Origin: a virus
Reading direction: 5' to 3' (one strand)
IMG/VR virus record: IMGVR_UViG_3300023174_000002
Span: 1 to 64,000 of that record
DNA length: 64,000 nucleotides
Under the pieces are notes generated by a model that did not search any database, was not told the DNA's origin, and was given only the letters and a program-made list of their open reading frames with translations. Made by a program: the position numbers and the translations under genes. Positions 1,314 to 3,640 of this stretch are shown in pieces. Every line of letters starts with the position of its first letter. The first letter of the stretch is position 1.

Positions 1314-1342
1314 TTGAAATTCTTTTATGATTAGGGTATAAT
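1314..1342 (+). promoter_or_regulatory. Sigma70-type promoter for the tRNA/tmRNA region
   Basis: TTGAAA-17nt-TATAAT with upstream A/T tract. Confidence 0.8.
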
Positions 1343-1376
1343 ACTTATTCTGTGGCGAATTTTACAAAACAAAATT

Positions 1377-1592
1377 ATGCAAAAACCAAACCGCTTTGAT
1401 TTTGAACAACAAATGATGGACTGCTGGGGTGTAGTAGATGATATTAAAACCATCTACTACCTTCCAGATTTGCGTGATACAACCGAAGATGAAATGCAGA
1501 ATTTACTGCTAGGCTTGTTTACCTTATACCAAGTCAAGTTTGAAATCTTGCAAAAAATGTTTGAGGACTTGGTTCACAGCAAGCAGTTCTAA
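1377..1592 (+). CDS. Hypothetical protein
   Basis: ORF directly after promoter, ends 8 nt before tRNA-Thr. Confidence 0.7.
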   Translation: MQKPNRFDFEQQMMDCWGVVDDIKTIYYLPDLRDTTEDEMQNLLLGLFTLYQVKFEILQKMFEDLVHSKQF

Positions 1593-1599
1593 AAGGTAA

Positions 1600-1670
1600 G
1601 CCCTGTTAGTTAAATGGCATAACAGTTGATTTGTAATCATCTATTGGCAGTTCGATTCTGTCACGGGGCA
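1600..1670 (+). tRNA. tRNA-Thr(UGU), CCA not encoded
   Basis: Acceptor GCCCTGT/ACGGGGC, anticodon loop TTTGTAA, T-loop TTCGATT. Confidence 0.9.
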
Positions 1671-1675
1671 CCGCC

Positions 1676-1763
1676 GGGTAGTGAGCATCATTGGCGAATG
1701 CAACAGACTGTAAATCTGTGGTCCCTAAGGGACAACGGGGTTCGACTCCCTGACTACCCACCA
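1676..1763 (+). tRNA. tRNA-Tyr(GUA)
   Basis: Acceptor GGGTAGT/ACTACCC, anticodon loop CTGTAAA, long variable arm, 3' ACCA. Confidence 0.92.
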
Positions 1764-1852
1764 TATAAAAATATTCTGGTCGGTGTGGTGAGACACGCAA
1801 GTAGACAATACTAGGACAAGGTTTGAATCCAAACTAGAGTATTTTTATATGG
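1761..1852 (+). ncRNA. Unclassified long-stem structured RNA with T-loop-like motif
   Basis: 20-bp closing stem CCATATAAAAATATTCTGGT/ACTAGAGTATTTTTATATGG (two G-U pairs) enclosing GTGT/ACAC, AGTA/TACT and GG-TTTGAAT-CC. Confidence 0.55.
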
Positions 1853-2145
1853 TTGTATGAAGCAAGCCGAAAGGCGCATTGGACGTGGGTTCGACTCCCA
1901 CCTGGTCCACCAAAGATATATTGCACCAATCACTGCACGGGGTTACCTAGAGACTGCAGCTCGAAAAGCACATAGTAAGAAGTGCAGGTAACAGCAGTAT
2001 ATCTTTGATGGGCCAGTCATGGTTTCGACAGTGTGATAAGTATGCAAGTGGACAACTCGGTAGGCGATCTCCGCAAAAGAAGCAAAACATATAAATGCCA
2101 ACGATGAGGTATTTGCCCTAGCCGCTTAAGCTAGTGCCGAGGTCT
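1851..2145 (+). ncRNA. ssrA: Circularly permuted (two-piece) tmRNA; tag ANDEVFALAA
   Basis: Acceptor piece (GGAC-GTGGG-TTCGACT-CCCAC-CTGGTCC-ACCA, ends 1912) precedes the 5' piece GGGCCAG...TTCGAC (starts 2010); G3-U70 alanine pair; CAGTGTG pairs with CGCATTG; tag frame 2097-2129 after ATAAAT. Confidence 0.93.
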
Positions 2146-2177
2146 GCCCCCGCCTTGTAACCAAGGGGGGCTTTTTT
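2146..2177 (+). terminator. Rho-independent terminator ending the tmRNA coding piece
   Basis: GCCCCC-G-CCTTG/CAAGG-GGGGC hairpin plus T tract. Confidence 0.75.
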
Positions 2178-2810: not shown

Positions 2811-2949
2811 TTATAAGTGTATAGGTTGTCACAGAACTTTAGAAGAAATCACAGACTGGCAGTATTATACTGACGAACAAAGATTAAGAATAATGGATAG
2901 AATAGACAATGAATCCTTTAGTAACTGTAATAACACCAACAACAGGTAA
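2767..2949 (+). CDS. DUF1289-like small Cys-rich protein
   Basis: TPCxxxC...CIGCHRTLEEITDW signature. Confidence 0.8.
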   Translation: MMTPCVMICKINPNNYKCIGCHRTLEEITDWQYYTDEQRLRIMDRIDNESFSNCNNTNNR

Positions 2950-3640
2950 CCCCTTATTAGGGCGAGCAATTGATTCTGTTTTAGAGCAGACGTATAAGCC
3001 TATTGAATATATTATTGTAATTGATGGCTGGAAAAATGAAGCTGCAGCTAGAGAAATTATTGCTAATGCACATAGAATGTGTCATGTAATTGTATTGCCA
3101 TTTCCAACTGGAATTGCTGGATATAACGGACATAGAATTTATGGTGCAATGAACTTTATTGCTCGCGGACAATACATCTGTTATTTAGACGAAGACAACT
3201 ACTATGATAAAAACCATATCGAGTCATTAGTCAATGTACTGAAACCAGAACATAAATGGGCATACTCACTAAGAAAAATTGTAGATGCAGAAAGCAATAT
3301 AATTTGTAATGATGACTGCGAATCATTAGGCCCTTGGACCAATGTACTTAATGATAATCTTGTAGATGTGGGTTGTTATATGTTGGACAAACAAACGGCG
3401 CTTGAAACAGCACCTATTTGGTATAGACGAGCCAGACATCCCGATGATCAACCTGAAGTAGATAGGGCTCTTTATCAAACTTTGTATTCTTTATACGGTG
3501 AAAATGCTGTAATCAGCAATAAGCAATATACATTAAATTATACAGCAGGTAATACTGTAAATAGCGTAAAACCTGAATTTTTTATTGACGGCAATAAAAA
3601 AATGCAAGAACTTGTTCCAGGTTATCCTTGGCGCGATTAG
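2909..3640 (+). CDS. Glycosyltransferase family 2
   Basis: PLVTVITPT...RAIDSVLEQTY...IIVIDG, ARGQYICYLDED (DxD-type motif). Confidence 0.88.
   Translation: MNPLVTVITPTTGNPLLGRAIDSVLEQTYKPIEYIIVIDGWKNEAAAREIIANAHRMCHVIVLPFPTGIAGYNGHRIYGAMNFIARGQYICYLDEDNYYDKNHIESLVNVLKPEHKWAYSLRKIVDAESNIICNDDCESLGPWTNVLNDNLVDVGCYMLDKQTALETAPIWYRRARHPDDQPEVDRALYQTLYSLYGENAVISNKQYTLNYTAGNTVNSVKPEFFIDGNKKMQELVPGYPWRD

What the first reader, a model, noticed from the sequence alone, without database searches (positions are those of the whole stretch)
1851..2177. Phage-encoded circularly permuted (two-piece) tmRNA
Seen: the T-arm/acceptor/CCA half (ends 1912) comes before the 5' half (starts 2010), separated by a 97-nt intervening sequence. 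The G3-U70 pair, CAGTGTG/CGCATTG and CTCGG/CCGAG pairings, the tag ANDEVFALAA* and a terminator are all present. Established: permuted tmRNAs occur in Alphaproteobacteria, some Betaproteobacteria and marine cyanobacteria, and standard annotation often misses them. Inference: this is either captured from a permuted host lineage or an independent permutation. The tag resembles the betaproteobacterial ANDERFALAA type, which hints at the host. No smpB is present in the window.
Basis: partly seen in the sequence, partly recalled or inferred. Interest (0 to 1): 0.78.

Follow-up and report, generated by a model that had tools for sequence, protein, structure and literature searches.

The report
Phage two-piece tmRNA gene, beta type
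An uncultured T5-like phage carries a genuine "back-to-front" (two-piece) gene for tmRNA, the RNA that frees stalled ribosomes; phage genes of this kind are already published, so it is a new member of a known kind, with added detail on how the RNA is probably cut out of a tRNA transcript.

Summary
ARAGORN calls a permuted tmRNA with tag ANDEVFALAA, and Rfam scores it 133 bits (tmRNA_permuted) and 130 bits (beta_tmRNA). The alpha model gives 53 bits and the cyano model 32 bits, below its cut-off.

The host genome is a complete 99-kb T5-like phage with no SmpB gene.

The gene is not a one-off. Of 81 related phage loci anchored on the neighbouring ClpP-like gene, 62 carry it. In 40 it lies within 200 nt upstream of that gene. 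Helices covary and G3-U70 is kept.

- **Intervening sequence.** It is a covarying stem that extends the acceptor stem. Its length ranges from 7 to 194 nt among relatives.
- **Second helix.** A 21-bp helix joins the ACCA end of the upstream tRNA-Tyr to the first bases of the tmRNA. The RNA is therefore probably excised from a tRNA-tmRNA precursor.

The phage sequences group with the sole tmRNA of Advenella and Brackiella, apart from the Rhodocyclaceae type. The host is unresolved.

Phage two-piece tmRNAs are already published (PMC9004378), and cultured phages carry beta-type ones. This scan has also noted the same kind, often beside ClpP, in at least 72 other genomes. It is a new member of a known kind.

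The parts
1314..1342 (+). Near-consensus sigma-70-type promoter (TTGAAA, 17 nt, TATAAT). It is the likely start of the transcript that carries the small ORF, the two tRNAs and the tmRNA.
   Evidence: 11 of 12 matches. It is the only + strand promoter-like site between 1000 and 1900. Its role for the tmRNA is inferred.
1600..1763 (+). tRNA-Thr (1600-1672) and tRNA-Tyr (1676-1763), directly upstream and probably co-transcribed.
   Evidence: ARAGORN and Rfam tRNA.
1760..1853 (+). Bridge helix. The 5' arm (1760-1780) starts at the ACCA end of tRNA-Tyr. The 3' arm (1833-1853) ends in the first three bases of the tmRNA acceptor piece. It has 21 uninterrupted pairs around a small branched insert.
   Evidence: Fold z-score -5.1. 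An equivalent helix of 15-23 bp, with different sequences, occurs in 19 of 39 distinct related loci; 16 of these start at the discriminator base of a called tRNA.
1851..1912 (+). Acceptor piece: helix-2 3' strands, T-arm, acceptor 3' strand, discriminator A and encoded CCA.
   Evidence: Rfam alignment, ARAGORN 3' tRNA domain 1874-1912 and covariation in the T-stem, acceptor stem and helix 2.
1913..2009 (+). Intervening sequence of 97 nt. Its flanks (1911-1924 with 1994-2007) form a 14-bp stem that continues the acceptor stem across a conserved C-A mismatch.
   Evidence: Fold z-score -5.7. Anchor-based covariation in 40 distinct flank pairs. Length is 7-194 nt in relatives, even where the mature parts are 92-97% identical.
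2010..2177 (+). Coding piece: acceptor 5' strand (G1 at 2010), helix-2 5' strands, a short AGGCGA-loop hairpin, the tag frame, helix 5 and a terminator hairpin with U-run.
2097..2129 (+). Tag reading frame ANDEVFALAA plus stop. The stop codon lies in the loop of helix 5 (CTAGC 2118-2122 with GCTAG 2130-2134).
   Evidence: ARAGORN. Helix 5 shows a compensatory change in L012. The tag family AN[DE]xx[FY]AL[AV]A is conserved across the phage clade.
2193..2810 (+). ClpP-like serine protease gene starting 16 nt after the terminator U-run. It is a conserved neighbour; a functional link is not shown.
   Evidence: Pfam CLP_protease E 5e-10 and phrog_1827. Ser-His-Asp aligns with solved ClpP. T5 itself has a homologue.

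Best explanation
This is a functional, phage-borne, beta-type two-piece tmRNA gene.

**Shown**
- The gene has every sequence and structure feature of a permuted tmRNA.
- It is conserved, with compensatory base changes, across a large clade of uncultured T5-like phages.
- The phage has no SmpB gene.

**Inferred mechanism**
1. The RNA is transcribed from the promoter at 1314-1342, at the end of a unit made of a small ORF, tRNA-Thr, tRNA-Tyr and the tmRNA. Transcription stops at the hairpin and U-run at 2148-2177.
2. Two long helices sequester each ACCA 3' end against the leader of the next RNA. One is tRNA-Tyr ACCA with UGGU at 1850-1853. The other is tmRNA ACCA with UGAU before G1.
3. Host enzymes then cut the precursor. 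RNase P would cut at G2010. An endonuclease such as RNase III or RNase E would cut in the helices, and 3' exonucleases would trim back to the encoded CCA. This would give a 62-nt acceptor piece and a roughly 168-nt coding piece, held together by the acceptor stem and helix 2.
4. Host alanyl-tRNA synthetase charges the RNA through the G3-U70 identity pair. Host SmpB and EF-Tu deliver it to stalled ribosomes.
5. Translation resumes at GCC (2097) and adds ANDEVFALAA, a ClpXP-type degron.

The benefit to the phage is probably to keep ribosomes free while host mRNA is being degraded.
For: **Detection**
- ARAGORN calls tmRNA*.
- RF04321 gives 133 bits and RF01850 gives 130 bits, above its cut-off of 84. 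Alpha gives 53 and cyano 32.

**Covariation in 43 distinct phage sequences**
- The acceptor stem has 2-3 pair types at three positions, with U-G at the G3-U70 site in 42 of 42.
- The T-stem has four pair types at one position.
- Helix 2a has up to five pair types.
- The distal helix 2, GGUUGU with ACAACU, shows compensatory variants.

**Conservation and context**
- Tags are conserved as AN[DE]xx[FY]AL[AV]A.
- 62 of 81 related loci carry the gene.
- In the window's sub-clade the mature parts are 92-97% identical while the intervening sequence varies from 7 to 153 nt.
- Both processing helices are supported: (offsets 6-15 paired in 30-39 of 40 distinct flanks, with 2-6 pair types each), and z-scores of -5.7 and -5.1.
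- No sigma-70-like site lies between tRNA-Tyr and the tmRNA.
- The genome is a complete 99,208-bp phage with terminal repeats. Its DNA polymerase is about 50% identical to those of T5-like Vibrio phages.
Against: - There are no expression, processing, charging or tagging data.
- SmpB is absent from the phage, so function depends on compatibility with an unknown host's SmpB and AlaRS.
- The mRNA-like domain is reduced. I could not verify any pseudoknot, and the proposed CUCGG/CCGAG pairing has mixed comparative support.
- 19 of 81 related loci have no tmRNA within 4 kb of the ClpP-like gene, so the gene is dispensable for the lineage.
- The nucleases named are inferred from general bacterial RNA processing (my own knowledge). 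They were not tested.
Confidence: 0.85

Rival explanations
1. Tag-and-degrade module. The phage tmRNA and the adjacent phage ClpP-like protease work together. The phage tags nascent host or aberrant proteins and degrades them with its own peptidase, docked on host ClpX or ClpA, to recycle amino acids or remove defence proteins. This is a specialised version of the best explanation, not an alternative to the RNA being a tmRNA.
For: - The ClpP-like gene starts 16 nt after the tmRNA terminator.
- In 40 of 61 loci with a coding piece, the tmRNA ends within 200 nt upstream of the ClpP-like gene, on the same strand.
- The catalytic Ser, His and Asp are kept.
- The tags end in ALAA, the class recognised by ClpX (my own knowledge).
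- Earlier notes of this scan report tmRNA beside ClpP in other phage groups. I did not check those notes.
Against: - T5 and most T5-like phages have the ClpP-like gene without any tmRNA. The neighbourhood may therefore only reflect insertion into the tRNA region followed by vertical descent.
- In 20 loci the gap is 0.4-2.4 kb, and in one the tmRNA lies downstream.
- A terminator separates the two genes.
- Cultured phages with beta-type tmRNA (JGB6, Menderavirus, BUCT-ZZ01) show no ClpP gene within 2.5 kb.
- No ClpX-type ATPase was looked for or seen.
Confidence: 0.2
2. Decoy or inhibitor. The RNA mainly titrates host SmpB, or blocks host trans-translation, rather than tagging. This was proposed for the tRNA-like-domain-only RNA of mycobacteriophage DS6A (PMC4131195).
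For: - The phage brings no SmpB.
- The mRNA-like domain is reduced compared with standard tmRNA.
Against: - The tag frame, resume context, stop codon in the helix-5 loop and C-terminal ALAA are conserved across sequences that are only 62-69% identical overall.
- A decoy would not need any of these.
Confidence: 0.08
3. Relic. The gene is a decaying copy picked up from a host, or an attachment-site fragment of ssrA, with no present function.
For: - ssrA is a common integration site, and fragments of it occur in prophages (PMC9004378, PMC4131195).
- 19 of 81 relatives lack the gene near ClpP.
Against: - The gene is full length.
- All helices keep pairing through compensatory changes.
- Mature parts are conserved while the spacer diverges freely.
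- The phage is T5-like, and I saw no integrase among the ten ORFs I scanned.
Confidence: 0.03

Closest known systems
Betaproteobacterial two-piece tmRNA (Rfam RF01850 beta_tmRNA; Sharkady and Williams 2004, as cited in PMC9004378 and PMC11915505)
   Same: - Same permuted gene order, tRNA-like domain and helix 2.
- Same short hairpin with an AGGCGA loop before the tag.
- Same AND-type tag, and the stop codon lies in the helix-5 loop.
- Same 3' hairpin with a CCUUGUAACCAAG loop.
- It scores 129.8 bits against a cut-off of 84.
   Different: - It scores far below Rhodocyclaceae genes. Azonexus scores 299 bits.
- The second 3' hairpin of the model is missing, and the first doubles as a terminator.
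- The intervening sequence is 97 nt, against a median of 29 nt in my bacterial sample. That sample was limited by the search pattern to about 40 nt.
- CCA is encoded. The Rhodocyclaceae genes I read have ACC followed by C.
- There is no promoter of its own. The bacterial genes have a -10 box 7-10 nt upstream.
- It resides in a phage that has no SmpB.
Two-piece ssrA of aquatic T4-like phages: Methylophilales phage Melnitz and pelagimyophages (Buchholz et al. 2022, PMC9004378)
   Same: It is a phage-encoded, complete, permuted tmRNA with a tag and no phage SmpB is reported. That paper counted 53 two-piece calls among 133 unique phage tmRNAs, mostly from aquatic phages.
   Different: - Melnitz's gene is of the alphaproteobacterial type and is described as controlled by a glutamine riboswitch.
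- This one is the beta type, sits in a T5-like siphovirus-type genome and follows tRNA genes.
- No riboswitch was found at Rfam gathering thresholds in the window.
Beta-type permuted tmRNA genes in cultured phages: Stenotrophomonas Menderavirus phages (annotated ssrA in Bhz51, Marzo, Yut2 and Yut3), Xanthomonas phage JGB6 and Synechococcus phage BUCT-ZZ01
   Same: They pass RF01850 (92-95 bits) and RF04321 (112-119 bits) and lie among tRNA genes.
   Different: - The only DNA similarity to the window found by blastn is about 80% over a 66-70 nt stretch of the acceptor piece (T-arm to CCA).
- They belong to unrelated phage groups, and no ClpP-like gene lies within 2.5 kb.
- In JGB6 and BUCT-ZZ01 the gene is not annotated, and a hypothetical protein is called over it.
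Sole two-piece tmRNA of Advenella and Brackiella (Alcaligenaceae)
   Same: - These are the closest bacterial relatives in my tree. Phage and Alcaligenaceae sequences are split from the Rhodocyclaceae type by a branch with support 97/87.
- They share the GGUAGGCGAUGACCGUAAAUCAAGCAAA element and an encoded CCA.
   Different: - They are chromosomal, and they are the only tmRNA found in those genomes.
- Their intervening sequence is short, 32-36 nt.
- They are still only about 60-65% identical to the window's gene.
One-piece tmRNAs of mycobacteriophages (Bxz1 group) and Bacillus phage G (PMC4131195)
   Same: They are phage-borne ssrA genes without a phage SmpB.
   Different: They have the standard, unpermuted gene form.

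Membership tests
Permuted (two-piece) tmRNA, RF04321 | The gene order is permuted. The segment ending in the acceptor 3' strand and CCA lies upstream of the segment starting with the acceptor 5' strand. | tested here: met
   CCA ends at 1912 and G1 is at 2010. RF04321 matches full length, 1-213, at 133.1 bits against a cut-off of 47.
Permuted (two-piece) tmRNA, RF04321 | A tRNA-Ala-like acceptor stem with G3-U70, discriminator A and a T-arm. | tested here: met
   G2012-U1906, A1909 and the T-arm at 1885-1901. U-G is kept in 42 of 42 distinct relatives while neighbouring pairs covary.
Permuted (two-piece) tmRNA, RF04321 | Helix 2 joins the two pieces. | tested here: met
   1875-1881 pairs with 2029-2035, with up to five pair types per position. 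1851-1856 pairs with 2051-2056, with compensatory variants in relatives.
Permuted (two-piece) tmRNA, RF04321 | A tag reading frame that resumes at an Ala codon, ends in a hydrophobic degron, and has its stop codon in helix 5. | tested here: met
   2097-2129 reads ANDEVFALAA and a stop. Helix 5 is 2118-2122 with 2130-2134.
Permuted (two-piece) tmRNA, RF04321 | The RNA is actually processed into two RNAs, charged with alanine, bound by SmpB and active in trans-translation. | not testable with these tools
   A free CCA end is logically required for charging. Covarying processing helices argue that the precursor is under selection. There are no RNA or protein data.
Permuted (two-piece) tmRNA, RF04321 | The partner protein SmpB is present in the same genome. 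| tested here: not met
   PF01668 finds nothing in the 99,208-bp genome at E up to 10. This is usual for phage tmRNAs. The host's SmpB is assumed.
Beta-type subfamily, RF01850 | A score above the curated cut-off that exceeds the scores of the alpha and cyano models. | tested here: met
   Beta 129.8 (cut-off 84), alpha 52.7 (cut-off 50) and cyano 32.3 (cut-off 70).
Beta-type subfamily, RF01850 | The lineage-specific 3' region has two hairpins after the tag. | tested here: inconclusive
   The first hairpin is present with the conserved loop. The second is absent and is replaced by a U-run.
Beta-type subfamily, RF01850 | Descent from the Rhodocyclaceae-type bacterial lineage. | tested here: inconclusive
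   The phage clade and the Advenella group sit on the other side of a starred branch from the Rhodocyclaceae. The tree is unrooted, uses about 236 columns, and the bacterial sample was chosen by a sequence pattern.

The most novel reading that the evidence does not exclude
The beta-type two-piece tmRNA may be a phage-carried cassette that has moved between phages and bacteria.

- The phage clade's nearest bacterial relatives are Advenella and Brackiella. Their only tmRNA is this permuted form, although only 5 of 61 sampled genomes of their GTDB family passed the beta_tmRNA model.
- Cupriavidus and Stenotrophomonas genomes carry a permuted copy in addition to their standard tmRNA.

On this reading a phage gene replaced an essential host RNA gene at least once. 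The two ACCA-sequestering helices would then act as a portable 'cut-out' module, letting the gene be expressed from any tRNA transcript.
Probability: 0.15. Interest if true: 0.6.

Novelty: new member of a known kind. Interest (0 to 1): 0.35.

Why it matters
On its own it matters little. Phage two-piece tmRNAs are published, beta-type examples already sit in GenBank phage records, and this scan has met the same thing many times.

Three points are useful:
- **Annotation.** ARAGORN missed at least 13 of 61 related genes that profile searches found. In two cultured phages the gene is annotated as a protein.
- **Processing.** There is comparative evidence for two covarying helices that tie each ACCA end to the next RNA's leader. 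This gives a concrete, testable model for how a permuted tmRNA is released from a tRNA operon.
- **Evolution.** The phage genes group with the sole tmRNA of Advenella and Brackiella. This raises the question of whether phages spread the permuted form among bacteria.

The conserved ClpP-like neighbour is a cheap hypothesis to test in any cultured relative.

Tried and rejected
- **Alternative distal helix 2.** The minimum-energy cofold pairs 1853-1859 with 2041-2047 instead of GGUUGU with ACAACU. I rejected this because relatives change the 3' partner without compensation, while the Rfam pairing shows compensatory changes.
- **The TAGTGTGCTAAAAT-type motif just upstream in relatives.** I first read it as an extended -10 promoter. 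I rejected that because it is the 3' arm of the bridge helix, whose 5' arm covaries.
- **The match of 1793-1850 to the 5' leader of the beta model.** This part of the model is unpaired and aligned with low confidence, and the region differs among close relatives. I do not treat it as homology.
- **Alcaligenaceae nested inside the phage clade.** The quick tree suggested this. The careful tree and the AU test do not reject phage monophyly, p 0.71, so I claim only that the two group together.
- **Placement of Cupriavidus.** In the quick tree it sat in the phage clade on a long branch that the tool flagged. It scores 281 bits on RF01850. I left it out of the careful tree.
- **Covariation of the bacterial intervening-sequence stem.** The anchor register is unreliable where CCA is not encoded, so I make no claim.
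- **Host identification.** The nearest bacterial tmRNA is only about 65% identical, and no cultured phage shares more than 60% protein identity. The host is unresolved.
- **Near-identity DNA search of the first 12 kb against cultured phages.** It matched only tRNA genes.

Full report
**1. What is there**

The sequence between 1851 and 2177 contains, in this order:
- a segment with helix-2 3' strands, a T-arm (1885-1901), the acceptor 3' strand (1902-1908), discriminator A1909 and CCA (1910-1912);
- 97 nt of spacer (1913-2009);
- a segment that starts with the acceptor 5' strand GGGCCAG (2010-2016). It continues through helix-2 5' strands, a short hairpin, a tag frame (2097-2129, ANDEVFALAA and a stop) and a GC-rich hairpin with a U-run (2148-2177).

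Detection is strong.
- ARAGORN calls a permuted tmRNA with this tag.
- Rfam gives 133.1 bits (E 7e-26) for tmRNA_permuted and 129.8 bits (E 3e-39, cut-off 84) for beta_tmRNA.
- The alpha model reaches 52.7 bits, just over its cut-off of 50. The cyano model reaches 32.3 bits, under its cut-off of 70.
- No ORF of 80 aa or more overlaps the region.

**2. Where it sits**

- The window is the first 64 kb of a complete 99,208-bp virus record with direct terminal repeats.
- The window encodes a DnaB-like helicase, DNA polymerase, SbcC-like nuclease, ribonucleotide reductase and a major tail protein.
- The polymerase is about 50% identical to those of the Vibrio phages pVp-1, VPT02 and Thalassa, which by my own knowledge are T5-like.
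- The gene after the tmRNA has a homologue in T5 itself, annotated there as a putative Clp protease at 29.8% identity.
- No cultured phage is close. All protein identities are under 60%, and DNA matches are limited to tRNAs.
- SmpB (PF01668) is absent from the whole genome.

**3. It is a family feature**

Using the ClpP-like protein (2193-2810) as an anchor, 502 viral contigs encode a relative, and I fetched 80.
- ARAGORN finds a permuted tmRNA in 48 of 81 loci, counting the window.
- Rfam and my own nhmmer profiles add more. In all, 54 loci have both pieces, 7 have the coding piece only, 1 has the acceptor piece only and 19 have nothing within the DNA fetched. Some of the single-piece loci are cut by a contig end.
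- In 40 of the 61 loci with a coding piece, it ends within 200 nt upstream of the ClpP-like gene on the same strand. In 20 the gap is 0.4-2.4 kb, and in one the tmRNA lies downstream.
- The tags are ANDEVFALAA, ANDNTYALAA, ANDSQFALAA, ANDQVYALAA, ANDLQFALAA, ANDTQFALAA, ANDTLYALAA, ANDEKFALAA, ANEERFALAA, ANESVYALAA and similar.
- A few long ARAGORN tags (L033, L035, L072, L083) are start-site miscalls. The usual ANDxQFALAA frame lies inside them.

**4. Evidence of selection on the RNA**

In 43 distinct phage sequences:
- the acceptor stem keeps pairing with 2-3 pair types at three positions;
- the third pair is U-G in 42 of 42, which is the alanine identity element;
- the T-stem has four pair types at one position;
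- helix 2a (1875-1881 with 2029-2035) has up to five.

The distal helix 2 (GGUUGU at 1851-1856 with ACAACU at 2051-2056) changes in step in relatives, for example GCUGU with ACAGC, GAUUGU with ACAAUC, and GAUCGU with ACGAUU.

Helix 5, which holds the stop codon in its loop, shows a compensatory change in L012.

The hairpin before the tag has an invariant AGGCGAU loop and a covarying stem (CGGU/ACCG, CAGU/ACUG, CGAU/AUCG). It is shared with bacterial beta tmRNAs.

It overlaps this hairpin. Among bacterial and phage relatives it is sometimes kept and sometimes broken. I leave it open.

**5. The intervening sequence is a processing stem**

Within the window's own sub-clade the mature parts are 92-97% identical. 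The spacer, by contrast, is 7, 55, 66, 72, 86, 97 or 153 nt long. Over all loci it ranges from 7 to 194 nt with a median of 85.

Only its two ends are constrained. I counted outwards from the acceptor stem in 40 distinct flank pairs:
- A73 faces U(-1) in 37 of 40.
- C74 faces A(-2), a conserved mismatch, in 37 of 40.
- C75 pairs with G(-3) in 35, and A76 pairs with U(-4) in 38.
- Offsets 6 to 15 are paired in 30-39 of 40, with 2-6 different pair types per position.
- Beyond offset 15, pairing falls to 12-19 of 40.

In the window this gives an almost continuous 22-bp helix: 1902-1909 with 2009-2016, and 1911-1924 with 1994-2007. The fold z-score is -5.7.

Two relatives, L008 and L022, have only a 7-nt loop and no encoded CCA.

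**6. A second helix at the 5' end**

Following a lead from another note on this window, I found that 1760-1780 pairs without interruption with 1833-1853. The 5' arm begins at the discriminator base and CCA of tRNA-Tyr. The 3' arm ends in the first three bases of the acceptor piece. There are 21 pairs and the z-score is -5.1.

- An equivalent helix of 15-23 uninterrupted pairs, with quite different sequences, is present in 19 of 39 distinct loci. In 16 of these it starts exactly at the discriminator base of a called tRNA-Thr or tRNA-Tyr. Others have it with one mismatch.
- The loci without it instead have a TATAAT box 6-8 nt before the acceptor piece, as the bacterial genes do.
- In the window no promoter-like site lies between tRNA-Tyr and the tmRNA. 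The nearest is a near-consensus one at 1314-1342 (11 of 12), followed by a small ORF (about 1377-1592) and the two tRNAs.

I therefore infer one transcript, running from promoter through ORF, tRNA-Thr, tRNA-Tyr and tmRNA to the terminator, from which the pieces are cut. Cleavage by RNase P at G2010, endonuclease cuts in the helices and exonucleolytic trimming to CCA are inferences from general bacterial RNA processing. They are not results.

**7. Origin**

A pattern scan of one genome per species found the same permuted arrangement mainly in Rhodocyclaceae-type bacteria (Azonexus, Dechloromonas, Thauera, Propionivibrio, Accumulibacter). It also found it in Advenella and Brackiella, in Gallionellaceae, and in scattered other genomes.

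The form is patchy.
- Only 4 of 151 evenly drawn genomes of Azonexus' GTDB order pass RF01850.
- Only 5 of 61 genomes of Advenella's GTDB family pass it.

The nearest bacterial sequence to the window's gene is about 65% identical, no closer than other phage sub-clades at 62-69%.

In a maximum-likelihood tree of the mature parts, the phage sequences plus six Alcaligenaceae sequences are separated from the Rhodocyclaceae type by a supported branch (97/87). Phage monophyly is not rejected (AU p 0.71).

Genome content differs among the bacteria.
- Advenella and Brackiella have no standard tmRNA above the cut-off, so the permuted gene is their only one.
- Cupriavidus and Stenotrophomonas have a standard tmRNA plus an extra permuted copy.

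This fits a single old capture of a beta-type gene by this phage lineage, and some traffic between phages and bacteria. The direction cannot be read from an unrooted tree of about 236 columns with a pattern-selected bacterial sample. Independent permutation is unlikely, given the shared lineage-specific elements. The present host is not identified. No claim here rests on the unpublished genome G031.

**8. The ClpP-like neighbour**

- The protein matches Pfam CLP_protease (E 5e-10).
- It aligns with solved ClpP structures with Ser, His and Asp in place.
- Because T5 and most T5-like phages have this gene without a tmRNA, the neighbourhood may be historical.
- A functional tag-and-degrade pairing is possible but not shown. 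I give it about 0.2.

**9. Comparison with what is known**

- Buchholz et al. 2022 (PMC9004378) described the two-piece ssrA of phage Melnitz. They counted 53 two-piece calls among 133 unique phage tmRNAs.
- The 2025 tmRNA database lists 79 phage sequences and introduced RF04321 (PMC11915505).
- Earlier lists held only one-piece phage genes (PMC4131195).
- Beta-type permuted genes are present in cultured Stenotrophomonas (annotated ssrA), Xanthomonas and Synechococcus phages.
- Earlier notes of this scan describe the same kind in at least 72 other genomes, several beside ClpP. One on a T5-like phage also mentions excision from a tRNA transcript.

My results agree with those notes and were obtained independently on this window.

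**10. Verdict**

This is a real, conserved and probably functional phage tmRNA gene of the beta two-piece type. It is a new member of a known kind. The processing helices and the link to the Advenella group are modest additions.

Noticed in passing
window 1781-1832: The insert enclosed by the bridge helix folds into three small hairpins, one with a GG-UUUGAAU-CC T-loop-like motif. It recurs in L011, L014, L021, L031 and L040, and may be a decayed tRNA. ARAGORN and Rfam do not call it.
   Followed up: partly
window 1314-1592: A near-consensus promoter (1314-1342) is followed by an unannotated small ORF of about 71 codons (1377-1592). The ORF ends 8 nt before tRNA-Thr. This is the likely head of the tRNA-tmRNA transcript.
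   Followed up: partly
L008:1-220 and L022:1205-1450: Two close relatives (same tag, ClpP-like protein 82-87% identical) have an intervening sequence of only 7 nt and no encoded CCA. Their tmRNA would need cleavage within a hairpin loop and CCA addition by the host.
   Followed up: partly
L245 (Xanthomonas phage JGB6, OQ436456 about 52.7 kb) and L247 (Synechococcus phage BUCT-ZZ01, ON615601 about 117.2 kb): In both cultured phage records a beta-type permuted tmRNA (RF01850 94-95 bits) is not annotated, and a 'hypothetical protein' is called over it.
   Followed up: yes
L166 (contig CAZVFG010000104 of a MAG labelled Methanoregula): A 4.5-kb, 39% GC contig binned into an archaeal MAG carries a beta-type permuted tmRNA (165.8 bits), several tRNAs and an abiF RNA match. 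It looks like a bacterial or phage contig. This may bear on the 'archaeal tmRNAs' reported in PMC11915505.
   Followed up: no
G156 and G158 (Cupriavidus), G005 (Stenotrophomonas): These genomes hold a standard one-piece tmRNA (191-217 bits) and a second, permuted tmRNA. The Stenotrophomonas copies have unusual tags such as ANNDDYHQVLKAA. Whether the extra copies lie in prophages was not checked.
   Followed up: partly
L023, L026, L042 and similar loci, between helix 2 and the tag: Many relatives have a 40-60 nt insertion in place of the short AGGCGAU-loop hairpin. It is probably a true pseudoknot 1. L023 and L083 have a further palindromic insert (TATACTCATAGTATA type).
   Followed up: no
window 3629-3640: As another note on this window says, the stop codon of the glycosyltransferase gene (2909-3640) overlaps the start of tRNA-Val (3631). 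I saw the coordinates but did not study it.
   Followed up: no
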